DNA of 64,000 nt from Leucoraja ocellata (GCA_036785375.1 JAWMAR010000011.1:7006001-7070000), one strand, 5' to 3'; counted from the first letter of the stretch, positions 4,200 to 55,336 are shown. Made by a program: numbers and translations. Notes: a model not told the origin generated them from the letters alone.

Positions 4200-5284
4200 A
4201 TATAAAGCCAACCACGGACAAGATGCCCCGCCTTTTTCTTTCGTTTTGTTCCTTGTCATGTTTTAGTTAATTTTGTTTTATTAAGTTGTATATGTGTGTG
4301 GGTGGGGTGGGAGAAACATGCTTTGGTCTCTTCCTTCGGGGGATGCGACTTTTTCTTCGGTCGTATTCCCCATCCCCGTCTCCGTCTGCGCCGAGGCCTA
4401 ATGGCGGAGCTGGCGGCATCGGAGCTGTAGCAGCGGCGGAGACCCGACTCGGTCCTGGAGCTGTAGCGGCGGCAGCGGCAGCAGCAGCGGTAGCGGAGAC
4501 CCGACTCGGCCCTGGAGCTGTGGCGGAGGCGGTGGAGGCGGCGGAGACCCGACTCGGCCCTGGAGCTGTGGCGGAGGCGGCGGAGACCCGACTTGGCCCC
4601 GAAGCTGTAGTGGCGGCAGCAGCAGCAGTGGTAGCGGAGACCCGGCTCGGCCCTGGAGCTGTGGCGGCGACAGCAGCAGCAGCAGCGGCAGAGACCCGAC
4701 TCGGCCCCGAAGCTGTAGCGGCGGCAGCAGCAGCGGAGACCCGACTCGGCCCTGGAGCTGTGGCGGCAGCAGCGGCAGCAGCAGCGGTAGCAGAGACCCG
4801 ACTCGGCCCTGAAGCTGTAGCGGCGGCAGCAGCAGCAGTGGCAGCGGAGACCCGACTCGGCCCTGGAGCTGTGGCGGCGGCAGCAGCGGCAGCAGCAGCA
4901 GCAGAGACCCGACTCGGCCCCGAAGCTGTGGCGGAGGTAGCGGCAGCGGAGACCCGACTCGGTCCTGGAGCTGTGCCGGAGGTAGCGGCAGCGGAGACCC
5001 GACTCGGTCCTGGAGCTGTGGCGGAGGCAGCGACCACCCGCGGAGTTTGAGCCGTCGCCTCAGCGCAGAGGGAGAACAAAGAGGGAAGAGACAGAGACTT
5101 TAAGATTTTGCCTTCCACCAGTGAGGAGGTGTTTGGTGAACTCACTGTGGTGGATGTTAAATTTGCGTTGATTGTGTGTTTTTGTCATTTTTTTAATTAT
5201 ATGTATGACTGCAGGGAAACAAAATTTCGTTCAGACCGAGGTCTGAATGACAATAAATGAATCTAATCTAATCTAATCTAATCT
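4200..5284 (+). mobile_element. Non-autonomous LINE-tailed retroposon, copy A, with internal Ala-type minisatellite
   Basis: Interrupts the BEL element; 3' hairpin, AATAAA and (AATCT)n tail; ends strongly similar to 33370-34245. Confidence 0.75.
4420..5035. repeat. GC-rich minisatellite GAGACCCGACTCGGCCC(T/C)G(G/A)AGCTGT(G/A)+(GCN)n, about 12 units
   Basis: Unit repeated directly; linker length varies by whole triplets. Confidence 0.95.
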
Positions 5285-8200
5285 TGTGTATTGTCGTTTT
5301 TGCGCCGCAATTCTGAACTTGAACACATCCGTTTTAACGCACCAGTGCAATCCCAGTGCTCTTTCCATTGGCAGATTGTCTTTATTCAAGTCCAACTCAC
5401 TGGTCTCCTTGGTTCTGTTTTCTTGTGGAATTGATGCCAATACAGCATGGCTGTTGCTGATCCACTTTGACAGCATGAATCCTCCCATTTGACAGAGGGC
5501 AGTCAGGTCTCTTACCATTTGAACTGCTTCCTGTTCCGGTACTTGCCTGAATCTGATGAGAATTCCAATGAGTGAGTTGGTAAGGTCTGGAGTCTGCAGC
5601 AGTTGGCAGTTAAACGATGTTGCTTTGAAGACTACACCACAGTCAAAGACCACCCTTAAGGTTCCTTTCCTTGAGTGATACATCCCACAATGAGGGATGT
5701 ACCAGAGTTCTCCATCACTTTGATTCAGCTGGTTCACTGGGATCATTTCAGCCTAACCGTTTTCAATCATTTCTGTGAGGCAAGATATTCATCATGAAAT
5801 TTCTCATTCTTGCCAAACTTGCATTTCGGGCTCTGGATGAGCTGATCTGCAATGCAATATTTGGCATGCCGGCGTTTTCTTGTTTGAACGGTAAGTCTAG
5901 ACAATAGTGTCCATCTGTCATCGTTGCTGAGCGATTCACAATATCCAAGAAATTTACATCCTCTCTGGACATTTCCTGTCTCCTTGCTGGTTCTTTCACT
6001 GAAGTCGTGATTGCATTGTTTGACCAGTAGCTCCTCTTGGTTTACAATGGATATTCGATTGACAGCAGCAGCAGGGCAGCCATTTTCATCCCTGCTGTCA
6101 TTGTCTCCTCTCAGGGAGGACCCACCGCAGTAAGGTCCTCACAGTGTATGGTCCATCCCCTTGGCCGTTGACCCAGCTACCAAGGTTCCAATACCTTTGA
6201 AGCATTTGTCTCAATGCCAGTCTATTTCAGAAATCTTGATATCCTTCAAGTAAGGCCATTATATCAGGTCTTGCTGTCTGGGAATGTTTAGCTAGGAAAC
6301 AGGCATGGTCTTACAGGTGAACACATCAGATAGTTGAATACAATCGTCTTTGTCCAGACTAGATATTTCCAAACCTGAGATATGATGACTGATCACAGGC
6401 TTCACTTGGTTCATGGTACACAAGAGAATATTGGTCCTTTGTCCAGTAATGTTCAGTCTTCCATAAAGCTTTCTGTGCAAGAGATAGATGAACTTCCATG
6501 ATCCTAAAATGCATATGTTTGCAACACTGTGTCCCCTTTGTGGCTCTTTACCTGTACTGGTACAATGGAGAAGATACAGGTTTCATCACCGGCTCCAATA
6601 TGCCCCCACAGACGAGGTGAGAAAACAGCATTACTGACAATTGGTTTCTCATTCTGTTCTGTATGTTCTGGTTTCTTCTGTTTGTCCTTTTGTTCAATGT
6701 GAAGTATTTCAGGGTGATTTTCGTTGCACACATCACAAGTCTAATGAGTCCTATTTTCAAACATTCAAAACAGACTCCCTTCTCCTTTAAGAAGTCTATC
6801 CTTACTCTGTGCCCCTTCTTCCTGATGTGTGGACACTGCCCCAATGTGTGACCACTTTTATTACAGAACAAACAAGAACCTTGATAATTGGTGGTAGATG
6901 CATTTATTTTCATTCCATTTGTTGTCAGATCTTCTTGCACTGGTCCTTCTACAGGTATTACAGTTGTTGCAAAACTGCTTCCTCTTGATCTTGACCTTTC
7001 TTTTGCTTTAGCAAAGGTAGAGCTTTTGACAGTTGCAATTGGCCTAGCATCCTGGATGTTTCCAAAAAGTGGATCTGACAGTATCTTCACTTGTCTATCT
7101 ATGAAGTCTACCAGGTCAGAATATCTAGCTCGATGTCTACGCTGCGCCTATAGCTGACATGCCCTATTCCTCCACTTGAGCTTGTAAGGCAGTTTTAGAA
7201 GGATGGTCTTCATATTGGAAGCAACATTCATTTCTTCCATATTGGTGAGATGTTCCATTGCACTGCAACAACCTCTAAGGAACCGTGAGAACGCTTGCAA
7301 TGCTTTCACATCCTCTGCTCTAATCACTGACCAGACAAATGCCTTGACCATATATGCAGTGGCAATCTTATGTTCATTACCAAAATGTTCTTACAGCAGA
7401 TCTTTTGCTCTTTTATAGCCCTGGGCTGGAGGCAAATGTTGGCAGCTGTGGACTGTGTCTTTTGGATGCCCTCTTGTGTATTGCTCTAGAAAATGCAAGC
7501 AGTCACTGTAATCATTAGTCTTTCTTTCCACTCCTCTCTCAAATGCCCTGATGAAAACTTCAAACTGCAAAGGATCACCATCATAAACAGGAATGTTTCT
7601 TGGTGGTAAAGTAGAAGAGAGACTTTGTTGAGCCAGAAGAGCCGTGATGTCATTTTGCCTCTGAATTAGGTCACAGATATCACCTTGGTTTCCATCATCC
7701 AGTATAGGAGGGAGTAGTGCTAACATGCCCCTGCACACTCTTTTGCATATGTCTGTACATTTTGCCTTTGAAGAGAGTATTGAGTTAGATGGGTCATAGC
7801 ATGATGGTCCATGAGTTGGTTGTTTTGGTCTAACAACCTGCTGCTTGGAGAAAGATTCAATTCCCATCTACACATTCTGCATTTGTTTATTTGATCAGGT
7901 AAGTATTCATTTGCACGTGGATTTAATTTAGTTGCTGTTTCTTTTTGAGCAGTTTTTCCCAAATAAGAGCTCATCCCATCAGATACTCTGGAGCTGCTTC
8001 TTGCTCCCATGGCCTCAAATACATTGATCTTTGCTTTGGTTGCTGCCAACTCAATCTCTAGTTCCAGCTGTTCTTTCTTTCTTTTCAATTGTTCTTATTG
8101 TGCCTCAAGCTCATGCCTTTCCTTCAGAGCAGCAACCTGTTCCATGAGAGCAGCCTTTTCTGCCTTATCTTTAATGCAAGCAAAGGACATTGAAAATGTA

Positions 8201-8361
8201 CGCGATGAAGAACTAGATTTGTGGCTTGATCTAGGTTATGAGGCATTTGAAAGACTGTCATCAGGTGCAATGTCATCTGAGTTTACAACACGCTGTTGTA
8301 TGGCAATTTCATCAATAGAATTTGTAGTTTGCTTTCCAACAAACTACACCTTTCCATTCTT

Positions 8362-8427
8362 TCCATCCATCCATCCATCCATCCATCCATCCATCCATCC
8401 ATCCATCCATCCATCCATCCATCCATC
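8362..8427. repeat. (TCCA)n microsatellite
   Basis: Perfect tetranucleotide run. Confidence 0.97.
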
Positions 8428-8997: not shown

Positions 8998-9123
8998 TAC
9001 ATCATTTCATATTATATCATATCATATACTTATTAAAAGTCTCATCTTGTATGTGTGTATATGTGGGTGTCTTTACATCTTTGCAAAAACATTACCCGGT
9101 AATGATAACATTTTTACATATTC

Positions 9124-11159: not shown

Positions 11160-12406
11160 CCCTTCCTCTCTACCCCATTCCACTCTACACTCTCCCCCTC
11201 CTCTCTACCCCTCCCCCTCTGCCTCCTCTCCCTCTCTCTCCCTCCATCCTCTCCCTGTCTCCCTGCCCCCCTCCCTCTCTGCCCATCTACCTCTCTGCCC
11301 CCCCCCCCAGGTAATTCACACTCCCCCCCCCCCCGGGTTATTCACACTTCCCCCCTACCCGGGTTATTCACACACTCCCCCCCACCCGGGATATTCACAC
11401 TCCTCCCCCTGGGTTATTCATACCCCCGACACAGCCGAAAAATACGCTGCCGATGGAACAAAGGACGAGCCCGGAGATGAAGTCGGGGCCTGGACTGGAG
11501 ACTGTGGCGGCTGAACTGACGGCTGCATTCCATAGCCAGGACTGGGATGAGTACGAGAACCAGGACGAGTTCCAGGCCCTGGCGCTGCTCTACGACCTAG
11601 GTAGGTGCTGCCTCTACACCCTCCCACTCTCTACCCCCTCCCCCCTACCCCAGGTTATTCGGACCTTTCCCCCACCCGCCTCCCGCACCTTTCCCCCCAC
11701 CCTCCTCCCCTGCCGCCGTAGCCGGCCGGAATTGAGCTGGGGTGCCGCTGCTTCTCCGCACAGCCAGCGCCCAGAAGAATTGTGAACCCCAGCTCAAAAA
11801 GGCAACTAACACCCCCGACCTCTCCCCCTCTCCCCGGATTATTCACACATCCTGCACTCCCCTGCTGTCATGACGCCCCGGCTGGCGTTTTACGCGACCA
11901 TCAAGAGGAAAGGGTTTGGAGGGGCCTCGTGCGATGTCCTGTGCGGTTCGGTACCCTCTGGTTCGGGGGGGGGGGGATCATGTGGCGGCACCTGATAGCA
12001 ACCTAAGGTCACGACTACTGTCAGCTCTAGAGGGTGGCATCTTAGTGGGGGAGGCACGAGTCGTGGGGTCAGTACCCGAGTTGTTATTTATGGCCGGGCA
12101 ACGCCCGTGTCAGGTGAGGAGTAGGGAGTTGTATTACAGAAGAGTAAACAGGTCTAGTGCGCACAACTTGTGTCCTACTAGTGTTTGGCTGGACTCCGGC
12201 ACAGCATCACACAGGTGCGCGAAGATTTTGAGCATCCCAAAATCATGGGGCCCCGCACGCTACCACGCATCACTGCATACGCCACCATGCCTCACCACGC
12301 GCATGCATGCCATGCGCACGTCATGCGCGTGTCACGCGCGCATCACGACGCACCAACCAATTTTGAGGGTGTCGAGCAAATGACGCCCAAGTGAAACAGG
12401 GCCTAA
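11160..12406. mobile_element. Possible PIF/Harbinger-derived non-autonomous element (one end visible)
   Basis: CpG-rich body ending CCAAGTGAAACAGGGCC-TAA (Harbinger-like TIR plus TAA target); no matching left TIR seen; includes C-rich repeats. Confidence 0.4.
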
Positions 12407-21429: not shown

Positions 21430-22214
21430 CTGTAATTCCTTGAATGCCTGCCATTCTTTCCTAAACAAATGGCATCAAAATTGCCATTGTGTAAAAGACC
21501 AAATGCTGATTAACTTCCCTTAAAGATATATATGACAGTAGTGGTTCTTGATCTCAAAGATGGTAAATGCACATCATGAAACCACAATCTGCAGTCTAAC
21601 GTAATTTAATTCAGGTTGTCATAAATTCATAAGGGATAACAGAATCGGGCCATTCGGCCCATCAAGTCTACTCCGCCATTCAATCGTGGCTGGTCTATCT
21701 CTCCCTCCTAACTCCATTCTCCTCCCCATAACCTCTGACACCTGTACTAATCAAGAATCTATCTATCTTGCCTTAAAAATGAGGGAGGCTCTCAACATTT
21801 ACTTTCCTTTCCTAATTTCCATACTTATGTGTCCAAATAAAACTACATTTTTCATGCATCTGTCCAGATCACCTGTTATTTGATCTGCCTGTTCCTTGCT
21901 GAATGGGGGCATTGAGCATTAGCAAATAAATTGATTCTTTTGTTTTATTTCCCCAAGAATGATCTGAACCAAGTTTAAGGGCACGATCCATGACACACAG
22001 TGGCTTGCAAAAGTTTTCATACCCCTTGAACTTTTCCACATTTTGTCACGTTACAACCACAAATGCAAATGGATTTTATTGGGATTTTATGTGATAGACC
22101 AACACAACGTGGTGCATAATTGTGAAGTGGAAGGAAAATTATACATGGTTTTCAATTTTTTTTACAAATAAAAAACTGAAAAGTGTGGTGTGCCCCATAT
22201 TCAGCCCCCCTGAG

Positions 22215-24131
22215 TCAATACTTTGTAGAACCACCTTTCGCTGCAATTACAGCTGCAAGTCTTTTGGGGTATGTCTCTACCAGCTTTGCACATCTAGAGA
22301 CTGAAATGTTTGCCCATTCTTCTTTGCAAAATAGCTCAAGTTCAGTCAGATTGGATGGAGAGCATCTGTGAGCAGCAATTTTCAAGTCTTGCCAGAGATT
22401 CTCAATTGGATTTAGGTCTGGACTTTGCCGGGGCCATTCTAACACATGAATATGCTTTGATCTAAACCATTCCATTGTAGCTCTGGCAGTATAATTAGGG
22501 TCGTTGTCCTGCTGGAAGGTGAACCTCCGCCCCAGTCTCAAGTCTTTTGCAGACTCTAACAGGTTTTCTTCCAAGATTGCCCTGTATTTGGCTTCATCCA
22601 TGTTCCCATCAACTCTGACCAGATTCCTTGTTCCTGCTGAAGAAAAGCATCCCCACAGCATGATGCTGCCACCACCATGTTTCACAGTGGGAATGGTGTG
22701 TTTAGGGTGATGTGCAGTGTTAGTTTTCCGCCACACATAGCGTTTTGCATTTAGGCCAAAAACTTCAATTTTGGTCTCATCTGACCAGAGCACCTTCCTC
22801 CACATGTTTGCTGTGTCCCCCACATGGCTTGTGGCAAACTGCAAACGGGACTTCATATGGCTTTTTTTCAACAATAGCTTTCTTCTTGCCACTCTTCCAT
22901 AAAGACCCGATTTGTGGAGTGCACGACTACAATACAATACAATACAATACAATTCATTTGTCGTTTGGATCCCGTTAAGGTCCAAACGAAATGTCGTTTC
23001 TGCAGTCATACATACAAAACGAAAAAGACCCAAGACACAATTTACACAAACATCCTTCACAGCGCATCTTCTCCTCGCTGTGAAGGAAGGAAAAAAAACC
23101 ATCTCTCCCCTGCAGTCCCCTCTCCCCCCCCCCCCCCCCATATCAGAGTCAAAGACAGAGTCAAAGCCCCCAGCGGGCGATGTTAAATGTCCCGCAGCCA
23201 TTAAAGCCATGCCGGGTGATGCAAAGCCAAGCATCGGGTCTTGGTGTTGGAGCCCCGGCGGGCTCTTGGTGTTGGAGCCCCGGCGGGCGCTCACAAAGTC
23301 CCGCGGCAATTCCAAGCCGCGCGGGGCAGGGATGTAAGGCCCCGCTCCAGGTAATCTTCAACCCCGCAACTCGGGCGGGAGCAGTCGCCGTTGCGGAAGC
23401 CCCGAAAAACGGTCTCCAACCAGGGACCCATGGACTCCCGGTATTTCTGTCCACAGACCTGAGGTAGGAGCTTCCGAATCTCCGGGGGTCGGGCCACAGC
23501 ATCGCTCCACCACAGCTCCACCCGCTCTGGACTTGGCCAGCTCCGTGAAGGTGAGTCGTCCGCAGCTCCGCGACTGGAGCCCCAGGTCGTTCCCGCTTGA
23601 GGCCGCTCCACGTAGCAGCCCCAACGACAACGGAGACCCGACAAAGAAAAGGTCGGGTCTCCCGTGCAGGGGAAAGAATTTAGAGTTTTCCCCCACCCCC
23701 CGCCCCCCACACACATACCCCGACAAAAAATAATTAAAAATTACATTTAAACGAAACAGAAAATAATTTAAAAAACAGACGGACTGCAGAGGCCGCTGCT
23801 GGTGACGAGAGTCGCGCCGCCCACTAATCGTTGTCCTGTGGACAGATTCTCCCACCTGAGCTGTGGATCTCTGCAGCTCCTCCAGAGTTACCATGGGCCT
23901 CTTGGCTGCTTCTCTGATCAATGCTCTCCTTGCCCGGCCTGTCAGTTTAGGTGGACGGCCATGTCTTGGTAGGTTTGCAGATGTGCCATACTCTTTCCAT
24001 TTTCGGATGATGGATTGAACAGTGCTCCGTGAGATGTTCAAAGCTTGGGATATTGTTTTATAACCTAACCCTGCTTTAAACTTCTCCACAACTTTATCCC
24101 TGACCTGCCTTGTGTGTTCCTTGGGCTTCAT
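22215..24131 (-). pseudogene. Tc1 transposase split by an 893-bp retroposon insertion
   Basis: N-terminal part MKPKEHT..GRPPKL..RTTIS (23823-24131) plus C-terminal part RALHKSG..WSDETK..QQDND..SPDLNPIE (22215-22925); joined length 339 aa with no stop; D(34)E spacing counted. Confidence 0.92.
22930..23822 (-). mobile_element. Non-autonomous LINE-tailed retroposon, copy C
   Basis: Flanked by duplicated ACTA (22926-22929, 23823-23826); (TTGTA)n tail; the family's three stem-loops. Confidence 0.8.
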
Positions 24132-24590
24132 GATGCTGTTTGTTCACTAATGTTCTCTAACAAACCTCTGAGGCCTTCACAGAACAGCTGTATTTATACT
24201 GAGATTAGATTACACACAAGTGGACTCTATTTACTAATTAGGTGACTTCTGAAGGCAATTGGTTGCACTGGATTTTATTTAGAGGTATCAGAGTAAAGAG
24301 GACTGAATACTTTTGCACGCCACACTTTTCAGTTTTTTATTTGTAAAAGAAATTGAAAACCATGTATCATTTGCCTTCCACTTCACAATTATGCACTACT
24401 TTGTGTTGGTCTATCACATAAATCCCAATAAAATACATTTACGTTTGTGGTTGTAATGTGACAAAATGTGGAAAAGTTCAAGGGGTATGCAAGCCACTGT
24501 ATAAACCATCTCAAATTCCACATAATAGTTCACTAACTAAGATGATAGTCCACTAACAAGATCTTTATGGAGCTGAATCTTTCAACTTAC

Positions 24591-24790: not shown

Positions 24791-26420
24791 GATACGATAG
24801 AACTTTATTGATCCCAAGAGGGAGATTGGTCTACCAACAATCATAAAACACAAGATACATGTGATGAGTGGAAAGCCCAGGATTGGAGATGTGCGGATTG
24901 GAGGGGGGAGGGGAGAGGGGAGGGGAGGGGGGGGAGACTCTTACCTCACGATAGAAGGGGGAGGAGTTGTAGTTTGATAGCCACAGGGAGAAAGGACCTC
25001 CTGTGGCCTTTTGTGCTGCATCTTGGTGGAACCAGTCTGTTGCTGAAGGTGCTCCTCAGGTTGACCAGTATGTCATGGAGGGGGGTGAGATGTATTGGCC
25101 AAGATGCTCTGCAGTTTGAGGAGCATCCTCCCCTCCAAGACCATCTCCAGTTAATCTATCTCCGCCCCCATGACGGACCAGCCTTCCTGGTGAGTTTGTC
25201 GATCCTATTGGCATCCGCGGCCTTCGGCCTGCTACCCCAGCACTCGACAGCAAAGATGGCACTGGCCATCACCAATTGGTAGAACATTTGTAACATCTTA
25301 CTGCAGACGTTGAAAGAGCAGTCTCCTCATATTGTACAGACGGCTCTCTCCCTTCTTCTACAAGGCCTCAGTGATCTTGGACTAGTCCTGTTTACTGTCC
25401 AAGTACATTCCAAGGTACTTGTATTCCTTGGTAAACTGCACGTCCACACCTTTGATGGGGACGGGGGACATAGGTCTTCCTCTCTTCCTAAAGTCCACCA
25501 CTAACATCTTAATCTTGTCGGTGTTGATTCAGCCCACACCATTCAGTCATTGACTACAACTCTGTATTCAGCTTCCCTCTCCTCCCCTCACAGATGCAGC
25601 CCACACTTACAGAGCCATCCAAAAACTTTTGAAGGTGACAGGAATCTGAGTTGTATCTGAAGTCCGAGGTGTAAATGGTGAACAGGAAAGGAGACGACTG
25701 TCCCCTGTGGGGCCCCTGTGTTGCTCACTACTACCATGTCCGAGACACAATCCTGTACCCTGACATACTGTGATCGTCCCACCAGGTAGTTGATGATCCA
25801 GGACACCAAATGAGCATCCATCTGTATCTTCCTCAGTTTACTCCCGTGCATGCCGGATGGTGTTAAAAGCACGGGAGAAGTCCAAAAACATGACTCTCAC
25901 AGTGCTTCCCAGCTTATCCAGGTGAGCATAGGTACGATGAAGCAGGTGGATGAGAGCATCCTCAACCCACATCTTTGTTTGGTAAGTGAACTGCAGGGGG
26001 TCCAGGTAGGGTTTAACCAATAGTCGCAGATGAGTGAGCACCAGCCTCTCCTGGGACTTCATGATGTGTGAAGTCAGCGCCATTGGACTGTAGCTGGGAC
26101 GCGTTCTCTTTGCTACAGGAATCAGTCACAGGAACCCTCCCTAGGCTCAGGTTGAAGATATGCTGAAGTACTCTGCACAACTGGCTAGCACACGCCTTGA
26201 GTACCCTAAGGCTGACATCATCGGGACCCATGCTTTGCCTGGGCGGAGTCTGCTTAGCTCTTTACTCACCTGCTCAGCCATGATGATCAGGTACGACAAA
26301 GAAAGGGTAGAGGAAGAGGACCAGGGGGATTGAGGGGGAGAGTCTGGCAGGGAGCAGGGGGGAGGGTGGGCAGAGGCCTCACCATCATATCTATTAAAAA
26401 ACAGGTTTAGCTCTTTCTGG
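24791..26420 (-). mobile_element. Rex1/Babar-type LINE, 5'-truncated and degenerate
   Basis: GPDDVSLRVLKACASQL, LDPLQFTYQ, VRVMFLDFSRAFNTI, NTGAPQGTV; AATAAA plus (TATCG) tail. Confidence 0.85.
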
Positions 26421-27034: not shown

Positions 27035-27237
27035 TGTAAAATGACTTGATCCTACACAGAGTCTTTTACTAACTGTTTATTACAATCACTAACACACACT
27101 ATGCAATAGCTGTCCGTGGTCATCACTGGAGCTAGAGAGCGAGCTGGAGGTGGGGACCTTACAATTATACTAGAGACAATGGGGAGTGGTTAGTAGTGGT
27201 GAGGTCACTATGTTAAAGGAACATGCACTGATCTACA
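27035..27237 (-). repeat. 3' LTR of the Gypsy element
   Basis: 203 bp; differs from 31485-31685 by two substitutions and one 2-bp indel. Confidence 0.95.
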
Positions 27238-27341
27238 TCCCTCCTCTTAGAAACAAACGCATGGCAATACACAGAGCGACCACGGCTCATACGCTAGGAT
27301 TACAAACCGCACCGGGAACAGTTAAAGGTATCATAACACAG

Positions 27342-30420: not shown

Positions 30421-30422
30421 TC

Positions 30423-31391: not shown

Positions 31392-31484
31392 GAAAACGGG
31401 GGGGGGGCGGGAACAACTGGGAGAAAGCAAAGAATAAAAAGAAAACCGATAAACAGGAGACGCGAGTCTACCGCTGTGACACCA

Positions 31485-31685
31485 TGTAAAATGACTTGAT
31501 CCTACACAGTCTTTTACTAACTGTTTATTACAATCACTAACACACACTATGCAATAGCTGTCCGTGGTCATCACTGGAGCTACAGAGCGAGCTGGAGGTT
31601 GGGACCTTACAATTATACTAGAGACAATGGGGAGTGGTTAGTAGTGGTGAGGTCACTATGTTAAAGGAACATGCACTGATCTACA
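31485..31685 (-). repeat. 5' LTR of the Gypsy element
   Basis: 201 bp direct repeat of 27035-27237; AATAAA on the minus strand. Confidence 0.95.
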
Positions 31686-33015: not shown

Positions 33016-33369
33016 CTTCGTGTTAGTCCATGTTATTATTTATTTTCCATGTGCCTCAACCTGATAGTCTTTGACAAATCCCAACACTTCTGTTCTCCCT
33101 CAAGTGCTCAATAACCAGCCCATTGAATGCATCGGCGATACCAAGTCACAAGCTTATAGCACTGTTGTAAGTGCAATCAGGCAGGTTCTGCAAGGGAGAT
33201 GGGCATTTGATGAGTGAGGTTTTGGGAATGGAATTCAGGTGGAAATGTGACGTTCCTCTCCCAACAATATTATAGCCTAAAGATTTAAAACATAGCAAGT
33301 TAGCCAAGGTACTGGAGTGTGGGGCCTCATGGAATTGTACTGCAACAAGGTATGAATTGTCTTGTTATA

Positions 33370-34245
33370 GTCAATTTTTAGTTATTAGGCTGTGTCATGT
33401 GTGGGGGGGGGGGGGGCTGAAACATGGTTTTCTGTCTCTCCCTTCGGGGGAATGCGACTCTTTCTGTCGGAAATCACCCCTTCTCTGCCTCCGTCTGCGC
33501 TGAGGCCTAATGGCAAAGCTGGCGGCCTCCAACTGCGACCGACCTCGAGGCTCCGGAAGCAGAGACAGCCAGGACTCACCAACGCGAGGCTGGCCGTCTT
33601 CAAGCTGCGGCGGCGTTCCAGTGGCAGCGGCCGACTTGGGGCTGAGACGGCACTCCAGTGAGGGCGGCCCGGCACGTGGCTGAGACGGTGCTCCGGTGAG
33701 GGCGGCCCGGCTCGGGGCTGAGACGGCGCTCCGGTGAGAGTGGCCCGACTCGGGGCTGAGACGGTGCTCCGGTGGCTGAGGCGACGTTCTGGCGGCGGCG
33801 ACCTGAATCCGGGGCTCGGCCACGGGCTAGTGGACGACATCGTCGGGAGCTCGCAGATCACAGGCTGGTGCCTGTTTTCCGGAGCTCCCACGGCAACAGC
33901 TGCCTCCGCTGGACTGGAGGGTGGCAGCTTCGATCAACCCGGGCCGCGGAGCTTGAACTGGCCTGTTTGCAGAGCTCGGTTGAGCCGCAGGACTGACTAC
34001 CATCGCCCGGTGGGGTAACAACATATCGCCTCAGCGCAGAGGGAGAATGAGGAGGGAAGAGACAGTAACTTTAATACTTTTGCCTCCATTACAGTGAGGA
34101 GGTGCCTGGTGAACTCACTGTGGTGGATGTTAATTTGTGTTTATTGTGTGTTTTGTTGTTTATTATTATATGTATGGCTGCAGGCAACGACATTTCGTTC
34201 AGACCAAAAGGTCTGAATGACAAATAAAGGATCTAATCTAATCTG
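33370..34245 (+). mobile_element. Non-autonomous LINE-tailed retroposon, copy B, with a 38-bp internal tandem repeat
   Basis: Ends closely match copy A; the middle carries GGGGCTGAGACGG(C/T)GCTCCGGTGAGGGCGGCCCGGCTC about 4 times (33637-33780); (AATCT)n tail. Confidence 0.78.
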
Positions 34246-41270: not shown

Positions 41271-41914
41271 AACTGATGCATTTGAAGGACAAGATTTTCA
41301 GAACAAGTAGACCTTTATATCTATTGCAGTCAGAACGTTAGGTAGGGGCAGGTGTTGCAAGTTCTGAGTGTGGAATTGAAGGTAACAGTAGTTATACATT
41401 TCAATTATCCTGGCCCAATGCACAATGTGACAATAAATATTTGCTGCTGGACCTTGGGAAACATGCAGCACTTCCCATACACAAATGCAAGGGTCAATGG
41501 TGGTTTGTTATCACATGTACAGATGTAAAATGAAATAAAATAAAAATACAGATCAGAAAAGAATTGCCATACCTAAGCCCAATTAGCAGTGTGTAGAAAT
41601 AGTCCACTGAAACTGCATGCAACAGTCGCCAAGTTATGGTGCAATTTCCAAAGTTCAATCCGATCCGTGCATTGTTTTCTGGAGTAACGCCCGATCTAGG
41701 CGATCTTCAGGCTGCTGCAGGGCCTCCAGCCGTCACCTCCGTTCGGATTGTCCAGCAAACCGTCGTTCCTCTACTTGCCTGGCCACCTTCAGCCTTTGTA
41801 CCCCTGGGGGTCTCCCATAGCTGACCTTGAGGGCATGGAAGGTAAAACCCCAGTTTACTCTCTCACTGGCCCTTGTTCCTTACGTCCTTCGTCACCGGTT
41901 CACTCCTCTCCGAA

Positions 41915-42830
41915 ATTCAGATTCAGATTCAGAAAACTTTATTGTCTGTCGTAACAGAAAATCTTCTTTGACGTGGCTCAACATACAGACAGGACAATGT
42001 ACTGATAAGCAGTCATACAACACAGATTTCTGAGAGCACACACAGTGTGTATCGATCTTAAAAGCAAATATAAAGATTAAAAACTGTAAAAATAGACAAG
42101 ATAAAAGTTGTGGATACGTGTAAAGTGACAATGCGTCAGGGTTAATTTGTCCATTGTTCATTTTTTATTTAAGCTGTTTATGGCAATGGGTATGAATGAG
42201 TTTTTGTGGATGTTTTTCTTGGATAGGGGGACTTTATATCGGCGGCCTGATGGCAGAAGTTGGAAAGACGTGCAGGGGGTGGGTGGGATCCTGTGTAATG
42301 AGATTGGCTTTCCTTTTAACTGCCTGGGTGTGGAGTACTGATAATTGATTTTGAGTTTTGCCAGTTATTTTGCTTGCCTGATTGATGATCCGGGAAAGCT
42401 TTGATTTGTCTTTGACAGAGGTGAGGGTGAACCAGGATGTGATGTTAAAGGCGAGTACAGATTCTATAAGTGATTTATAGACAGCTGTTAAAATGTCCTG
42501 TCTGACATCAAAGCTCCTGAGTTTCCTCAGCAGGAACAGGCGTTGCTGTGCCTTCTTGTACACAGAGTCTGTGTGCTGGGAGGACAGGTGGGTGTCAATC
42601 TCTGTGCCCAGGTATCTAAAGGCCTCTACCTGCTCAACTGTCTGCCCATTCAGCCTCAGAGGTTCAAAGAGAGGTTGGGGGAAGATGTTCGCCTCCCCCC
42701 ACAACACAGCTCCTTGGTCTTGGAGATGTTGAGCTTCGGGGGAAGAGCAGGGGCCCAGCTTGGCGTCTTCCCTCCAAAGGCTGCAGTCCTTGTAGGGTCT
42801 ACTGGACAGTAGTGATCCCACTCCTGTATG
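41915..42830 (-). mobile_element. Rex1/Babar-type LINE 3' fragment
   Basis: LNISKTKE, VEQVEAFRYLG, KKAQQRLFLLRKLRSF; AATAAA plus (TGAATC)n tail. Confidence 0.85.
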
Positions 42831-43754
42831 GTTCTAAGAGTTGGACTGCTTGTAGTAAGTAGCTCAAAACATTTGAGAAATGTTACCAACATTGTATCTG
42901 CAAAATGCTTCAAATATATTGGCAGGATGAATGGATCCAGAGATGCTACCTGGCCTACTGAGTTAGGAACCTCTTCCAGGCCAACATCGGCAGAGTCGAG
43001 TCTAACACTCAATTAGCTGTGTTAAAAACCAGACTACAAAAACAAAGATTCTATTCCAAGCTTTGTCACACCAGGAGATTGCCAGGTTGATGTAAAGGAG
43101 ATTCAACAATATTTTTTTTAATTCCTTGAAGAATTGCATTGCCCTCGTTGACACCTGAGAATCTCTCGCCCATGTCCAATCAAAATGGAGAATGAGAATT
43201 TGGTATGATACTGAGAACCTTGGGTCCATGTGTTCGGAGTACGCAGAGGCTCAGTGTAAACGACAGAAAAAGCACACCACCTCTCAACTTGCAACATATA
43301 CAGCACATTAAACTCCTCCTGCGTCATCAGATCACTTCAGAATGCACAGAAACGGAGTGGAATTAACCCCAAGGGATCATTTAAAAAATTGCTGGTACTT
43401 GATCCTCCAGGCCATATGCCTTTTGCAGCATTTGTTTGCTGCTGCCAACGTTGAGAGTCACCTCATAATAAAGGAGAGAATAGTATAAGTGTGTGTACCA
43501 GTGTGCCTGTTTGTATATTATGGTTGAATAAATGGAAATATTTATCAACCATGAATGTATAACTGAATAATATGGTAGTGGTTAGTGTAGCAGTGTTTGC
43601 TGGACCCTATAATTACTATGTAGGAGAAATGATCGATGGAAATTGTGGCAAATTATCAGAGACAGAATTGTGAGTACAGTTGTGAACCTTTAATTCATTT
43701 TCATTTATACTTGTACATTAGTTGGCTGATATATTACTGTTTGTAGTACTCTAG

Positions 43755-49492: not shown

Positions 49493-51482
49493 ATGTATCT
49501 CCTCGAAAGCCAGATGCCGAAATGGGGAGGTCTTTACATATTTCCGCAGAGATTTTCCTTGTGAGTTTAGAGATCCACTCCTCTGTACCCTGGGAACATT
49601 ATTTTCCTGACTTTTTAATGAAAGTTGTTGACCAATCGGATGTTTTTTTTCTAATCTGACCGCTGCCCAGCTCCTCACGTTAGAATAAGAGACAAATCCT
49701 CACATTGTGTGTGTGTGTGTGTGCGCGCGTGTGCGTGTGTGTGTGTGTTTTTAGAAATCCACTCCTCTCTACCCTTGGTACATTATTTTCCTCACTTTTC
49801 CATTAAAATTGTTGACCAATCTGATCTTTTTTTTTTAATCTGACCGCTGCCCAGCTGCTGATGTTACAATAACAGAGAATTTTTTACATCTTCTGGTAGA
49901 CATTTTCCTTATGATTTCATCATCTATACAGTTGGTCAATTATTTCCCGAATGGTTATAAATTTTAGTAAATAAGACTGATATTTTTTTAAATATTAAGG
50001 TTCCCCAGCTGCTGACCTCACAATGCCTTTGCACCTGGCCCTGCCCGGTGCTGCCACCGCAACTACCTCCTACCCCCTCAGCCTGCCAGGTTGTTGATTC
50101 CATTGTTTTTCATTGAATTGAATTGAATTATTTCTCACTTAACATCACTAATTCTTAACACTAACTTTTACAGTTTAAAAAAAAAAATAATTTGCTGTCT
50201 TCATTGACAGCTTAGATCGGACCCGCTGTGTGAGTGTAACGCCGCATGCTCCTCCCCTGAATTCCATAGAACTGCCGACAGCATTTCGCTCTCTCTGTCT
50301 CTCCCCCTTTCTCTCCCCATCTCTCTCTCTCCCCATCTCTCTCCCCTCTCTCTCTCTCTCCCTCTCCCGCTCCCCACCGCCCTGTCCTCCCCACCCTCCC
50401 TCCCCCCTCTCTCCTAAACCCCCTTCCCCTCTCCCTTCCACCCCGCCCCTACCCTCCACCCCATTCCCTCCCCCTCCCTTCCCCCCACCTCTCCCCCTCC
50501 CCTCACCCCCCCACCTCTCCCCCTCCCCTCCCCCCCTTTCCTCCCTTCCCTTCCCCCTCTCAGCCCCCTCTCTCCTCCTCTCTATTGGAAGATTGGAACC
50601 TTCACGTGGTCCCACTAAAATCAAACTGCTGCATGTCACAGTGCCATCTCATAGATGTACAATCACAATGGATTCTATTTGCATATGACATCACAATGGG
50701 ATCTGGGTGGGAGATCCCTCCCCCTCCCTTCCCCCACACCCCCCTTCTCTCTCGCGCTTTCGTGCTCCCCCTCCCCCTCACCTCCTCCTCTCTACCCCTC
50801 TCCCTCCCTCTCTCTCCACCTCTCCCCTCCCCCTCTTCCTCCCCACCCCTCTCCTCTCCCCCTCTTCTCCCCACCCCTCTCCTCACCCTTCTTCTCTCCC
50901 CCTCTTCTCCCCACCCCTCTCCTCTCCCCCTCTTCTCTCCCCCCACCCCTCTCACTCACCCTTCCCCCCTCCCCCTTCCCCCTACCCGTCCCCCTTGACC
51001 CTCCCTGCTCTCCTCCCCTCCCCCATCCTCATCCCCTTCTCTCTCCCTTCCCCCTCCCCTCTCCCTCCCCACTCTCTCCCCATCTCCCCCTCCCCAATCT
51101 CTCCCCATCTCCTCCTCCCCACTCTCTCCCCATCTCCCTCTCCCCTCCTCCCCCCCTCACCCACCCATCCTCTTCTCCTCCCCCCCACCCCCCTCTCCCC
51201 CTGTCTCTTGCCCTTCTGTCTCTGCCCCTCTCTCTCTGTCTCTCCCCATGCTCTCTGCCCTCACTCTCTAGCCCCCCCCCCCCTCTAGATGTGCATGTAA
51301 GTTGGGGGCAATGCGTCAGTGGATAGGGCGGTTATGGGGTAAAAGGAGCAAATTAATAATGTTAATATAATATCAAGGGGGGGTAGTTAGCCTGTGCGCG
51401 GGGTGGTAGTTAGTGTGTCTGACGCCACATGCCACCACCCCCCCCCCCCCGCAAATGGGGGACCAACGGGTCTGCACTTGGT
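49493..51482 (+). mobile_element. Probable non-autonomous Helitron with internal duplication, (TG)n and CT-rich tracts
   Basis: 3' GGGACCAACGGGTCTGCACTTGGT matches the other Helitron-like ends; 49565-49705 is repeated at 49750-49880. Confidence 0.5.
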
Positions 51483-51534
51483 GTATTTAGTAGCATTTAA
51501 AAATCAAAGCACTTAAATTTCTAAACTTTCTTAC

Positions 51535-51612
51535 ATAGTTTTTTATTGGCTTTCAAAATCATACTGAAGATATCAGCTTCATTCGTTTCACTTTGCAACT
51601 TGTTCAAGTCAT
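51535..51612 (-). CDS. Astacin-like metalloprotease, coding exon 3 (propeptide)
   Basis: TTTTCAATTTCAG acceptor, (D)DLNKLQSETNEADIFSMILKANKKL, GTAAGA donor; the 'IL.AN' propeptide motif is typical of hatching-enzyme-like astacins; phase 1/1. Confidence 0.85.
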
Positions 51613-51685
51613 CTGAAATTGAAAAGTTAAAACATAATTTAACAATCATTTATGTCTCAAATTTCACAATATTTGCATATATACA

Positions 51686-52462
51686 GTGGCGTGGCGGTGC
51701 CTATCGGCAGTGGCTCGATTAGTCCGTCTGTCTTTTAAAATGTTTTTGTCTTGTTAAATGTATGTCTTCAGTCTAGTTTTTCTTTAGCTGTGTAAATGTG
51801 GGGGATGAGGAGGGGAAACTGTTAGTCTCTTCCCCGTTCGGGGACCCGACTTTTTCCCTTTCGGGTCCCCAGTGTCGTGGGCCTAACACCGTGGAGCCGG
51901 CGGGGGCCTCCGGCCAGCACCAACCTGAGGGCTCCAGTCACGGAGCCTGCGGCCCAGACATACCGGAGCTCGCCATCTTCGGAGCGGGAAGAGCTGAGGT
52001 GGCGTTCCGACTTTGGAGCTTCGGAGGCTCCGGCCGCAGGCCCGGTGGTCAGGAACATCGGGAGCTCGCAGGTCCCTGGTGGGAGACCGCTTCTCGGAGC
52101 TCCTGCAACGGCAACTTCTCCCGCTGGAATCGCGGGGTTTGAAGGATACGGAGCCGAGCCTAACATCGCCCGGTGTGGCTTAAACGGCCACAGGACTTAC
52201 CATCGCCCGCCGGGGGCTTTAACATCGGGAGCCCCAGTTCGCCTCAACGCTGCAGTTGGACTGCTGGACCGCGGGAGAAGAACAAAGGGAAGAGATAAGA
52301 TTTTGCCTTCCATCACAGTGAGGAGATGTTGGAGATCCACTGTGATGGTTGTTAATGTAAACTGTGTTAAGTGTGGGTCTTGGTTTTTTTTTGTAATGTA
52401 AGACTGTAGAAAATGCAATTTTGTTCAAACCAAGCTGTTTAAATGACAATAAAAGGCATTCT
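51686..52462 (+). mobile_element. Non-autonomous LINE-tailed retroposon, copy D
   Basis: 5' GGCG..AGTCCGTCTGT start like copy C; stems at 51840-51870 and 52310-52348; 3' hairpin plus GACAATAAA. Confidence 0.75.
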
Positions 52463-52494
52463 ATATAATAAACATTCCTATTATTTAATTTTAG

Positions 52495-52820
52495 TTTTTT
52501 TTAGTATTGGAGATACAGCATGGAGTCAGGCCTTTTGGCCCACATAGTCCACACCGGCCATTGATCACCCGTTTGCAGTAGTTCTATGTTATCCCACTTT
52601 TCTCATCAACACCCTACACAACAGGGGCAATTTTAGAGTCCAATTAACCTACAAACCCACATGTCTTTGGGACGTGGGAGGAAACCAGAGCACCCGGAGG
52701 AAACCCATGCGGTCACGGGAAGAACCTATAAACTCCATACAGACAGCCCTCATTACGATCATACCCGGGTCTCTGTCACCATAAGGCAGCAGCTCTACAT
52801 GATGCACCACTGCGTCGCCT
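52495..52820 (-). mobile_element. HE1/V-SINE
   Basis: The reverse strand has a tRNA-like head, V-domain and CR1-like 3' tail with a (CTAAA)-type end. Confidence 0.85.
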
Positions 52821-54214
52821 TTTTTCTAAAGCCTCAAGATCCTAACCCTTAACAGCTAAACCAGTGTAGGCAAAAGAGGCCAGGATAACACAAATCCAAA
52901 GATAGACACAAAATGCTCATAGATGTCACAAAATGCAGAACATGCAGCATCTCTGGAAAGATGGAACACTAATCCAAGCAGTTATATTATGTTTAAAAAT
53001 CTGCAAATCATGCAGCACTGACAGAGTGTATTTCCATCCATTTGCACACCCACCTACCCGCCACATGCCTTATTAAACCACAATGCCTCAATTGGTAAAA
53101 GCACTGTGATAAAAGAAAACTGAGTCACTAAGGCAGATTCACATTTAATGGCTCATTCATACCGAGTTAATTTACCAAACTGAAACATACGAGGTCTTCA
53201 GGGCAAAGGGAAAGTACCAGGCAAGGGTTTCCCTCCTAATTACTATTGAACCCATCATAATCATAGCTGATTATTTGGCCGGAATACCAGAGAATTGCTA
53301 CAGTACACAGTGATATTGAGCAGAACACTAATCATCACTGTAAGCACAAGAAGTTGAGGAAATCATGCTTGTTTCTCATCAACCTGCAAATGCTTTTTTT
53401 TCTGTTGGGTAGAGTATGTATGAAGATATTTTACTATGATTCTGCTGAAAATATTCTATTCGTGCTCTCCCTGTGGAAGTGCTTACCCTATTTGGCCCCA
53501 ACTCCTTATACATTTTGTTACCAACCTCCTATTTTTTAATGATAAATGTGATGTAGAATATTAATGTATTATTTCATCCACATCCATAAAGGAATTGACA
53601 AATACACCACTTCTTAATTTTCCTCACTGCAATTCCTGATTTAGCTTGATTTTAATTTTAGTTTTCATACGTAGCCAACTGATTCACTGAACAACAATAT
53701 TTTATCCATACTCATTCTAAAAAGTCATTTTCAGCAATACAGGTACCTACATTACATTTCCTTACAAAGCCAGTGAATGTAGGGGCAAGGACTCCTTACA
53801 ATCATAATTCACATTTCTTTTGTCCAGACTCTGCAAACAGGACTGAAAATTTAAAGAATTAAGACTGGCAAACTAGAAAATTATTTACTGTGTGAGAGTT
53901 GAGTTCAATTTCAGTAAGCTATCTGATCACCCTGATATGGATTCTATATCCAAATATTTTTTGTATCATTCTCTTTGTACATGGTGTTGAAGAATGTACT
54001 AAACAAGAAGATCCCCTGCTTGACAACTGCCAATAGCTGAAATGTCAGGTAGTATGGGATGATAATAAGTTTCAGATTAACGAGTGGTTCTGCAGAATAC
54101 AACCTGTCCTTTGAACTGATCTGGACAAGAGGCACTGCTGGACGTTTCCTGCAAATTTGACTCTTACCTATTCTCCAGTAATAAACTAGCAAATACCAGA
54201 TTCAGTTCCTCCAT

Positions 54215-54520
54215 ATGCAGCTCAGGAGAGTGCTGCCTCACAGTACCAGTGACCCCGGTTTGATCCTAACCTTGGGACCTGTCTGTGTGGAGTTTGCATG
54301 TTCTCCCTGTGACTACTTGGGTTTCCTCTAGATGTTCTGGTTTCCTCCCACATCTCAAAGACATGCAGAGTATAAGTTAATTGGCCTTTGTACGTTGCCC
54401 TGACTATGTAAGGAGTGAATGTGGGATAACATAGAACCAGTGTTATTGGGTAATTTATGGTCAGTGTGAACTCAGTGGGCCGAAGAGCCTATTTCCATGC
54501 TGGATTTCTACACTAAACTA
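54215..54520 (+). mobile_element. HE1/V-SINE
   Basis: GCTGCCTCACAG..GGTTTGATCC, GGAGTTTGCATGTTCTCCC, 3' GGGCCGAAGAGCCT plus (CTAAA)n. Confidence 0.85.
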
Positions 54521-54959
54521 AATATATGTATGTGAAATCTATATTTTCCCAAGTAAAGCATTATTTACTTGAAATTGAATTACTCAATTTGTTAGGCACT
54601 AAATACAATTAAAAAAAAAAAAATTTGCCCATAATGTTTGTGCCGAACATGACGCCAAGTTAAACTGATCGCATCTTGCTGCACATGATCTATAACCCTC
54701 TAATACTTGCACTTCCATGTACCTATCTAAAAGCCTCTTACATGTCAGTATTGTATTGCCTCCAAAACAACGCCTTCCAGGCACCTACCACTCTCCGCAT
54801 AAAAAAACTTGCCCCTCACATCTCCATATAACCATATAACAATTACAGCATGGAAACAGGCCATCTCAGCCCTTCTAGTCTGTGCCAAACACTTACTCTC
54901 ACCTAGTCCCATCTACCTGCACTCAGACCATTCCTTTCGCGTCCATATACCTATCCAAT

Positions 54960-55336
54960 TTCCAGCTCGGCCTGTGGACTTCGAGAGCTGCAGTCTCCGG
55001 TAGGAAGTGGCCGATTCTGAAACTCCAAGCTGCTGTGAATGTTTTCCGTTACAATGCCGGAGCTCCGATCATCCCGGCAAGAGGGCCTGAAACACCGGGC
55101 CGCCCGTAGCGGCGACTGCGGAGGGTTCAAAGGCCCCGACCACAGGTGAACAAAGAGGAAGATGACTGAACTTTATTGCCTTCCCTCACAGTGGGGAAAC
55201 TCTGATTCTGCTGTGTGGGGATGTTCATGTTAAATTCTATCGTGTATTGGGTTCTTTTTATTCGTATGGCTGCATGGTAATTTAAATCTCACTGTACCAA
55301 TTGGTGCATGTGATAATAAATGTAACTTGAACTTGA
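54960..55336 (+). mobile_element. Non-autonomous LINE-tailed retroposon, 5'-truncated copy E
   Basis: TTGCCTTCCCTCACAG..CTGTGTGGGG stem, 3' hairpin, AATAAA plus (AACTTG)n tail. Confidence 0.65.

What the first reader, a model, noticed from the sequence alone, without database searches (positions are those of the whole stretch)
4200..55336. Five-copy non-coding retroposon family: three co-varying RNA stems around a swappable GC-rich cargo
Seen in sequence: copies A (4200-5284), B (33370-34245), C (22930-23822, minus), D (51686-52462) and partial E (54960-55336) share one layout. It runs T-rich tract, G-run, stem 1, variable GC-rich middle, purine tract, stem 2, stem 3, AATAAA-like motif, short-repeat tail. 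Stem sequences differ but pairing is kept. Stem 1: GGAGACCCGAC/GTCGGGTCTCC (C), GGGGACCCGA/TCGGGTCCCC (D), GGGGGATGCGAC/GTCGTATTCCCC (A). Stem 2: CCTTCACAGCG/CGCTGTGAAGG (C) versus CCATCACAGTG/CACTGTGATGG (D), two compensatory pairs. Stem 3: TTCAGACC/GGTCTGAA (A, B) versus TCGTTTGGA/TCCAAACGA (C). I see no tRNA A/B boxes and no transposase or RT ORF. Inference: a structured RNA mobilised in trans by a LINE (tails resemble the Rex-type 3' ends in this window), with selection on the RNA fold and a tolerant cargo slot. It is young enough to have jumped into the Tc1 and BEL elements.
Basis: partly seen in the sequence, partly recalled or inferred. Interest (0 to 1): 0.78.

Follow-up and report, generated by a model that had tools for sequence, protein, structure and literature searches.

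The report
Protein-less Rex1 parasite with RNA hairpins
Five related, non-coding jumping elements of up to about one kilobase in what looks like a ray or shark genome appear to borrow the two ends of the Rex1 retrotransposon around a hairpin-rich body, a known parasitic design that I could not find described for this retrotransposon group.

Summary
The family is real: five copies (6% of the window), non-coding, without a tRNA head. Four have 3-6 bp target-site duplications; all have a terminal hairpin, an ACAATAAA-like motif and a short repeat tail. Covariation holds at this small sample size: 148 of 156 stem cells pair and 15 keep pairing through changes on both sides (null 2-3, maximum 8). 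It is best for stems 2 and 3 and weak for stem 1.

The two 5'-complete copies (C, D) start with the two-box motif that caps published full-length Rex1 LINEs; all 26 table rows carrying the first box are Rex1 5' ends. The best reading is a bipartite non-autonomous Rex1 derivative: Rex1 5' cap, non-coding body, Rex1-type 3' end, probably transcribed by Pol II and copied in trans.

'Swappable cargo' is overstated: the B, C and D middles are homologous and vary by tandem expansion; only A and E lack a detectable match. I found no ribozyme signal. Expression, genome-wide copies, the autonomous partner and Repbase/Dfam status could not be checked. It is a known design from a clade that a 2018 survey did not list.

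The parts
4235..5282 (+). Copy A, 5'-truncated in the T-rich tract, (AATCT)5 tail, inside a BEL/Pao element
   Evidence: TSD CTT at 4232-4234 and 5283-5285; host frames on both flanks; tail
4339..4370 (+). A stem 1 (11 of 11 pairs, two G-U); hairpin 0 just upstream at about 4300-4336
4429..5032 (+). A middle: GC-rich minisatellite, units of about 39-54 bp, no detectable source in the B, C or D middles
5114..5154 (+). A stem 2 (10 of 10 pairs, 2-nt deletion in the 5' arm)
5227..5258 (+). A stem 3 (11 of 11) and ACAATAAA motif
33358..34243 (+). Copy B, 5'-truncated in the T-rich tract; stem 1 33448-33476 (7 of 11), 38-bp array 33627-33774, stem 2 34085-34127 (14 bp), stem 3 34195-34220
   Evidence: TSD TGAAT at 33353-33357 and 34244-34248
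22930..23822 (-). Copy C, 5'-complete, (ATTGT)5 tail, inside a Tc1 transposase gene; stem 1 23662-23632, 25-bp duplication 23235-23288, stem 2 23087-23053, stem 3 22989-22961
   Evidence: TSD TAGT
23792..23821 (-). Rex1-type 5' cap of C (GGCGGCGCG ... CAGCAGCGGC), followed by a T-rich tract
   Evidence: same motif at the 5' end of published Rex1 consensus rows
51684..52461 (+). Copy D, 5'-complete; stem 1 51840-51870, stem 2 52309-52349, stem 3 52421-52446 (9 of 11), one-unit tail
   Evidence: TSD TATATA at 51678-51683 and 52462-52467 (AT-rich, so the weakest TSD)
51693..51714 (+). Rex1-type 5' cap of D (GGCGGTGC ... GCAGTGGC, one transition per box)
   Evidence: 5' end in register with C
54958..55336 (+). 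Copy E, 3' part only, no TSD; stem 2 55182-55221, stem 3 55289-55313, (AACTTG)2 tail; flanked by two CR1-like pieces in opposite orientation
   Evidence: CR1 label recalled from the translated motif
41915..42833 (-). 5'-truncated Rex-type LINE (C-terminal ORF2 piece and 3' UTR): comparator for the 3' end, not a member
   Evidence: PF09004 hit; terminal similarity to A z=4.2, B z=3.7, other copies z of 1.2 or less; Rex1 label recalled
24795..26330 (-). 5'-truncated, broken Rex-type LINE ending in a hairpin, TCAATAAA and short repeats: comparator, not a member
   Evidence: terminal similarity to the five copies z of 1.7 or less; Rex1 label recalled from RT motifs
2790..2893 (+). Orphan 3' end resembling E's terminus (short remnant of this family or of a Rex-type LINE)
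   Evidence: z=9.6 against E; tail

Best explanation
A family of non-autonomous, bipartite Rex1 derivatives, present as several diverged subfamilies. A full copy has the first 45-75 nt of a Rex1 LINE (two-box cap and T-rich tract), a non-coding GC- and CpG-rich body of 0.6-0.9 kb with hairpins 0, 1 and 2, and a Rex1-type 3' end (stem 3, ACAATAAA-like motif, 5-6-nt repeat tail). Proposed cycle: (1) Pol II transcription from the Rex1-derived cap and CpG-rich body (inferred). (2) The single Rex1 protein (endonuclease plus RT), made by an autonomous copy, binds the 3' stem-loop region in trans (inferred by analogy with UnaL2). (3) Target-primed reverse transcription from the repeat tail gives 3-6 bp duplications and frequent 5' truncation in the T-rich tract (products seen, mechanism inferred). 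Each cycle selects the RNA fold, so source lineages drift in sequence while stems 2 and 3, and less clearly stem 1, are kept by compensatory change (pattern shown in five copies, cause inferred). The middle tolerates length change by tandem amplification. Whether the body is the parent Rex1's own expanded 5' leader plus 3' UTR (plain internal deletion) or foreign sequence is open; I put it at roughly even odds.
For: 5' cap: C and D start in register with GGCGGYGC-N4..14-GCAGYGGC, found twice in the window and never in 100 shuffles (pattern written after seeing the sequences). In the supplementary consensus table of PMC13343379 (at least 972 rows of CR1, L2, Rex1, Crack, Daphne and others; first 400 nt of each visible), 26 of 26 occurrences of GGCGGCGCG are in Rex1 rows within the first 15 bases. 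By eye, 18 of these 26 carry GCAGCGGC a few bases later, typically followed by a T-rich tract. C's 12-mer CAGCAGCGGCCT occurs in 2 rows, both stingray Rex1 5' ends. TSDs in 4 of 5 copies. Two to six T4+ runs in the first 200 nt of A-D argue against Pol III. CpG o/e is 0.82-0.87 against 0.47 for the window. Stems: 148 of 156 cells paired, 15 two-sided kept changes (12 distinct, 10 columns); null mean 1.8-2.5, maximum 8, 0 of 10000 simulations. On unguided alignments the covariation score was reached by 0 of 500 shuffles for stem 3 and 9 of 500 for stem 2, and exceeds all slid registers. G-U:C-A is 10:1 (P 0.006 at even odds, 0.016 at the copies' G+T bias). The host Tc1's terminal repeats are 91% identical while C differs from the other copies by 24-31%, so most of the difference predates insertion. 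Rex1 coverage is highest in rays and two teleosts (PMC13343379).
Against: No autonomous partner was found. The two RT-bearing Rex-type ends in the window resemble only A and B (z 4.2, 3.7; the other 8 of 10 comparisons z of 1.7 or less) and lack stem 2. An L2-type end in the window also finishes in AATAAA-like plus short repeats, so the tail alone is not diagnostic. D's exact cap 9- and 10-mers hit no Rex1 5' end in the table. Five exact 10-11-mers from the G-run and stem 1 had no hits in the table, and a sixth hit only a Daphne and an L2 row, so the body has no shown Rex1 source. Only two copies are 5'-complete. Stem 1 alone is marginal (380 of 10000 simulations reach the distinct count), and MAFFT aligns the 3' arm of C and D to a segment downstream of A's 3' arm, so A's arm may have arisen by duplication. 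B and D alone give weak support (173-454 of 10000). Stems were picked because they pair, with three gaps placed by hand, and the null ignores relatedness.
Confidence: 0.75

Rival explanations
1. The copies are ordinary 5'-truncated pieces of an autonomous LINE with an unusually long structured 3' UTR.
For: A, B and E are truncated. Rex1 is often 5'-truncated and has a conserved 3' UTR followed by oligonucleotide repeats (PMC6274825). Rex1 3' UTRs in the published table could not be seen (cells cut at 400 characters). This could be true of E alone.
Against: C and D begin in register, directly after their TSDs, with the Rex1 5'-terminal motif, which would not be expected at the start of a 3' UTR. 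A and B share the 5' block with C and D (69-80% identity).
Confidence: 0.08
2. A retroposon with a true cargo slot that captures unrelated GC-rich sequence between fixed structured ends.
For: A's array unit and E's 186-nt middle have no significant match to the B, C or D middles. Middle lengths run from about 390 to 650 nt.
Against: The B, C and D middles are homologous (z 8.6-58). A's middle is a simple-sequence minisatellite, and B and C have smaller arrays of their own. No middle matches other sequence in the window. Two skate Rex1 consensus rows show GC-rich tandem repeats in their first 400 nt (by eye), and repeated subunits near the 5' UTR are reported for ORF1-less elements.
Confidence: 0.08
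3. The same retroposon, but the stems are kept by DNA-level palindrome correction (template switching between arms), not by selection on RNA.
For: Stem 1 of A may have been rebuilt by duplication. Several windows fold as well or better on the antisense strand. The mechanism is recalled, not from a call.
Against: 10 distinct G-U pairs against 1 C-A on the sense strand; arm copying would give perfect Watson-Crick pairs and no strand bias. Stem 3 sits where stringent LINEs need a stem-loop (PMC1636434 abstract; PMC3747384). With a 2:1 mutational bias the asymmetry is only P=0.08.
Confidence: 0.06
4. A ribozyme-processed or Pol III retroposon (retrozyme-like, or a SINE with an unrecognised small-RNA head).
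For: SINEs with GC-rich heads of unknown origin have been proposed, and several LINE clades carry 5' HDV-like ribozymes (PMC5786205).
Against: No Rfam hit at gathering score; best E-values 0.49-3.7 in C and 3.3 in D; no hammerhead core in any copy on either strand; T4+ runs near the 5' end; the 5' end is already explained by the Rex1 cap.
Confidence: 0.03

Closest known systems
ORF-less bipartite non-autonomous LINEs (RIME/Ingi, NARTc/L1Tc, Bov-A and RTESINE from RTE, Vingi-1_EE derivatives, R2 derivatives), as surveyed in PMC5786205 (passages)
   Same: LINE 5' end plus LINE-type 3' end, no protein, no small-RNA head, presumed Pol II transcript moved in trans.
   Different: The parent clade is Rex1, whereas that paper lists only RTE, Ingi, Vingi and R2. 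The element has a 0.6-0.9 kb body with extra covarying hairpins and tandem arrays whose source is not shown.
Autonomous Rex1/Babar LINEs (PMC13343379 passages and supplement rows; PMC6274825 passages)
   Same: Two-box 5' terminus followed by a T-rich tract; a conserved 3' end followed by short oligonucleotide repeats; frequent 5' truncation.
   Different: No endonuclease or RT; about 0.8-1 kb against about 3-4 kb for the 5'-complete rows. The G-run and stem 1 motifs were not found in the first 400 nt of the published consensus rows.
Stringent SINE/LINE pairs such as UnaSINE1/UnaL2 (PMC1636434 abstract) and shark/ray HE1/HER1 (table row in PMC3747384)
   Same: A conserved 3' stem-loop plus short-repeat tail, presumably read by the partner RT; stems kept by compensatory change.
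   Different: Those SINEs have tRNA heads and L2- or CR1-type partners; this family has a LINE cap, no Pol III boxes and T-runs.
Primate SVA (recalled, from no call)
   Same: Pol II-type composite non-autonomous retroposon with a GC-rich, length-variable tandem-repeat middle.
   Different: SVA depends on L1, ends in poly(A) and is built from Alu and ERV parts. Architectural likeness only; no homology tested.

Membership tests
Bipartite ORF-less non-autonomous LINE | Begins with the 5' end of an autonomous LINE | tested here: met
   C and D caps; 26 of 26 table hits for the first box are Rex1 5' ends; D's variant has no exact hit at a Rex1 5' end
Bipartite ORF-less non-autonomous LINE | Ends with the 3' end of the same LINE clade | tested here: inconclusive
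   Same layout as the two Rex-type ends in the window, but only 2 of 10 comparisons are notable (z 4.2, 3.7); published Rex1 3' ends not visible
Bipartite ORF-less non-autonomous LINE | No protein-coding capacity | tested here: met
   Off-frame indels and no codon phase; no Pfam hit for the A and D open frames
Bipartite ORF-less non-autonomous LINE | Signature of target-primed insertion (TSD, repeat tail, 5' truncation) | tested here: met
   TSDs in 4 of 5 copies; tails
Bipartite ORF-less non-autonomous LINE | Consists only of the parent's 5' and 3' parts (internal deletion) | tested here: inconclusive
   Body motifs absent from the visible Rex1 5' regions; the purine tract matches one Rex1 row by a 10-mer only; no full-length parent available
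Bipartite ORF-less non-autonomous LINE | Pol II transcription and mobilisation in trans | not testable with these tools
   No read data obtained; needs CAGE/RNA-seq and a reporter assay
Autonomous Rex1 | One ORF with APE endonuclease and RT | tested here: not met
Canonical SINE (tRNA, 5S or 7SL head; includes V-, CORE- and Deu-SINEs) | Small-RNA-derived head with a Pol III promoter | tested here: not met
Canonical SINE (tRNA, 5S or 7SL head; includes V-, CORE- and Deu-SINEs) | Conserved central domain (V, CORE, Deu) | not tested
   No SINE library available; no match to other repeats of the window
Ribozyme-bearing retroelement (HDV-like 5' ribozyme, hammerhead retrozyme) | Recognisable ribozyme fold | tested here: not met
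   Rfam; recalled core motifs absent
Ribozyme-bearing retroelement (HDV-like 5' ribozyme, hammerhead retrozyme) | Self-cleavage | not testable with these tools
   Bench assay needed
Named Repbase or Dfam family | Match to a curated consensus | not testable with these tools
   Neither library is available

The most novel reading that the evidence does not exclude
An old, abundant class of Pol II 'SINE-equivalents' in cartilaginous fishes. It keeps only a short Rex1 cap and terminus, and its 0.6-0.9 kb body is not Rex1-derived but a purpose-evolved RNA scaffold. In that scaffold, hairpins 0-2 are new functional elements that capture Rex1 protein in trans, and the middle is a free slot. That would add Rex1 to the clades that spawn ORF-less parasites and give a natural covariation set defining what Rex1 RT recognises.
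Probability: 0.3. Interest if true: 0.65.

Novelty: new variant of a known kind. Interest (0 to 1): 0.43.

Why it matters
A 2018 survey lists only RTE, Ingi, Vingi and R2 as sources of ORF-less bipartite LINE derivatives and asks whether that is sampling bias (PMC5786205); a Rex1 case would bear on that question. A 2026 paper finds Rex1 the most often horizontally transferred CR1-group element, abundant in rays, and says the structural reason is unknown (PMC13343379). A parasite that keeps only the cis-signals, in lineages 10-36% apart, maps those signals and makes them testable. The family fills 6.2% of this window, so if that is typical it is a sizeable share of the genome and a dispersed source of CpG-rich sequence. 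The design itself is known, and the family may already sit unnamed in automated repeat libraries.

Tried and rejected
More copies from public collections: viral contigs 0 hits; metagenome contigs 3 of 3 hits were chance motif matches in microbial-looking sequence; genome contigs 1 of 1 chance; relatives of the Rex-type protein in viral contigs 0 of 7 candidates confirmed. No genome is held for this window.

Sequencing runs: 20 of 24 listed rows hold part of 51400-55700, in 11 studies, with no RNA holder listed. No reads were laid, so these rows are not used as evidence, and expression and copy number stay open.

Earlier scan notes: nothing relevant.

One search had an off-by-one register for B stem 2; one search replaces it and one search's counts are not used.

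Coding body or ORF1-type element: rejected. An ATG sits just before the G-run in 4 of 4 copies, but the frames are 252, 69, 141 and 9 codons long. Purine tract as a relic of the basic Rex1 leader peptide: one 10-mer hit in one row, inconclusive. The CAAGATG-like text at 4219-4230 resembles a LINE 5' end but is host BEL coding sequence. G-quadruplex motif: 1 of 5 copies, not at the G-run. Structure in the middle: only isolated windows reach z below -2.

Literature: ten searches returned no listing that describes a non-autonomous Rex1 family; the library lacks most subscription papers and Repbase Reports. Protein homology, folding and complex tools were not used because the element is non-coding.


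Full report
Setting. The window is repeat-dense animal DNA with Tc1, Gypsy-type, BEL/Pao, Penelope-like and several LINE fragments. The mix suggests a cartilaginous fish, probably a ray or skate; this is inference from recalled repeat types and from no call. No genome is held for the window and no reads were laid, so the analysis rests on five copies, in-window comparators and the literature.

The observation. Cross-comparison shows five related copies. A covariance model of the 3' 250 nt finds these five at 186-231 bits and nothing else above 12.7 bits among 11 hits; nhmmer with 5', middle, stem 2 and terminal profiles adds no further copy. Target-site duplications fix the edges of four copies: A 4235-5282 (CTT), B 33358-34243 (TGAAT), C 23822-22930 (TAGT) and D 51684-52461 (TATATA). 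E (54958-55336) has none. Together the copies cover 3,984 bp, 6.2% of the window. There is no tRNA gene, no Rfam family at gathering score and only E-values of 0.49 or worse in relaxed scans of C and D. D has one A-box-like and one B-box-like match far from its 5' end; the other copies have none. Indels between B, C and D are mostly off-frame (34 of 42, 29 of 38, 48 of 62) and mismatches show no codon phase, so the element is non-coding.

The stems. All quoted stems exist. In a hand-anchored register with three gap placements, 148 of 156 cells pair. Against the commonest pair, 15 cells keep pairing through changes on both sides (12 distinct, in 10 columns), 10 through one change, and 8 are broken. 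Scattering the same 49 substitutions at random gives 1.8-2.5 two-sided kept changes (maximum 8) and 25-30 broken pairs; 0 of 10000 simulations reach the observed values (which corrects). By stem, 380, 5 and 5 of 10000 simulations reach the distinct count for stems 1, 2 and 3. On unguided alignments, the covariation score is reached by 9 of 500 shuffles for stem 2 and 0 of 500 for stem 3. The stricter count of pairs with a two-sided change is not exceptional (91 and 109 of 500). RNAalifold finds stems 2 and 3 unprompted, with 6 of 25 pairs changed on both sides. Ten distinct G-U pairs against one C-A favour constraint on the sense RNA over DNA palindrome correction (P 0.006-0.08 depending on the assumed bias). 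Limits: five related sequences; stems chosen because they pair; B breaks stem 1 (7 of 11) and D dents stem 3 (9 of 11); B and D alone are weak; and A's stem 1 may have been rebuilt by duplication. A further hairpin between the G-run and the next pyrimidines folds in 4 of 4 copies. The Tc1 that hosts C has terminal repeats 91% identical, while 3' parts of the copies are 64-90% identical. If those repeats were identical on arrival, most differences between copies arose in separate source lineages, where selection on the RNA can act.

The middle. It is GC-rich (61-72%) with CpG o/e 0.82-0.87 against 0.47 for the window. B, C and D are homologous across it (z 8.6, 12.5, 58). A carries a 600-bp minisatellite, B a 38-bp array and C a 25-bp duplication. 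A's unit and E's 186 nt match none of the others above shuffles. The middle is length-tolerant; capture of foreign cargo is not shown, and remains possible only for A and E.

What it is. C and D begin in register. The supplement of PMC13343379 lists consensus sequences of CR1-group LINEs, of which the first 400 nt are readable. Stingray and skate Rex1 rows (10 of 47 and 10 of 56 name occurrences shown) often begin with GGCGGCGCG, a short spacer, GCAGCGGC and a T-rich tract, which is how C begins. All 26 occurrences of the first box in the file are in Rex1 rows within the first 15 bases, and 18 of 26 have the exact second box (by eye). C's 12-mer CAGCAGCGGCCT is in two rows, both stingray Rex1 5' ends. 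The two-box pattern occurs twice in the window, at the starts of C and D, and never in 100 shuffles (pattern made after the fact). D's version has one transition per box and no exact hit at a Rex1 5' end. At the 3' end the copies share hairpin, CAATAAA-like motif and short repeats with two RT-bearing LINE fragments that I label Rex1 from recalled motifs. Sequence similarity there is modest: A and B score z 4.2 and 3.7 against one of them, the other 8 of 10 comparisons 1.7 or less, and neither fragment has stem 2. Five of six motifs from the G-run and stem 1 have no hit in the visible table text, and the sixth hits no Rex1 row. So the cap is Rex1 (shown by motif), the terminus is probably Rex1 (layout), and the body has no shown source.

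How it most likely works. The Rex1 cap and the CpG-rich body drive a Pol II transcript (inferred; T4+ runs near the 5' end would stop Pol III; PMC5786205 expects Pol II for bipartite LINEs). Rex1's single protein, supplied in trans, binds the 3' stem-loop region and primes reverse transcription at the repeat tail (inferred from the UnaL2 precedent, PMC1636434 abstract, and stringent 3' recognition, PMC3747384). The visible products are short duplications, subfamily-specific tails and truncation in the T-rich tract (A, B). I think stem 2 is most likely part of an extended 3' recognition domain. Hairpins 0 and 1 most likely belong to the leader, affecting transcript stability or ribosome access; both roles are guesses. 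Confidence in the overall model is 0.75.

Comparison and novelty. It works like RIME, NARTc, Bov-A/RTESINE and Vingi derivatives. It meets three of their defining features here; two are inconclusive and one is untestable. It fails the tests for a canonical SINE, an autonomous Rex1 and a known ribozyme. PMC5786205 names only RTE, Ingi, Vingi and R2 as sources of ORF-less bipartite elements. Ten searches listed no description of a Rex1 case, but Repbase, Dfam, the Zenodo consensus set, the cut parts of the supplement and most subscription papers were out of reach and may hold it.

Papers seen: PMC6274825, PMC5786205, PMC3747384 and bioRxiv 10.64898/2026.10.27.761883 as passages; PMC13343379 as passages and supplement rows; PMC5499810 and PMC1636434 as abstract and outline; all others as search listings only.

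Verdict. It is a new variant of a known kind; interest 0.43.

Noticed in passing
35846-38044 (+): Penelope-like element (label recalled) with an open 700-codon RT frame; its 5' end is a perfect 84-bp inverted repeat at 35846-36033.
   Followed up: no
27035-31685 (-): Young LTR retrotransposon with 98% identical terminal repeats and long open gag-pol frames.
   Followed up: no
16926-18046: Unexplained GC-rich tandem arrays with units of about 73, 139 and 77 bp, preceded by two 10-11 bp hairpins at 16845-16919; no match to the family, no Pfam hit.
   Followed up: partly
11298-12380: 26-bp array followed by a GC-rich unassigned stretch with a 10-bp hairpin at 12296-12331, just upstream of an L1-like fragment; no Pfam hit for the one frame tested.
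   Followed up: partly
2790-2893 and 41360-41450 (+): Short orphan 3' ends with GACAATAAA; the first resembles copy E (z=9.6), the second weakly (z=3.2).
   Followed up: partly
22015-24492: Tc1 element with about 200-bp terminal repeats, 91% identical, whose transposase frame is interrupted by copy C.
   Followed up: yes
copies A-D, start of the G-run: An ATG precedes the G-run in 4 of 4 copies, but the frames differ in length (252, 69, 141, 9 codons) and are not conserved.
   Followed up: partly
60551-60824: Diverged tandem duplication of about 105 bp (70% identity) in an open frame with no Pfam hit.
   Followed up: no
54227-54517: SINE-like repeat (V-SINE by recall) with an inverted look-alike, 72% identical, further upstream.
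   Followed up: no
PMC13343379 supplement, rows LeuEri_Rex1-7 and LeuEri_Rex1-15: These skate Rex1 consensus rows show GC-rich tandem repeats within their first 400 nt, a possible precedent for the arrays in A-C (by eye).
   Followed up: no
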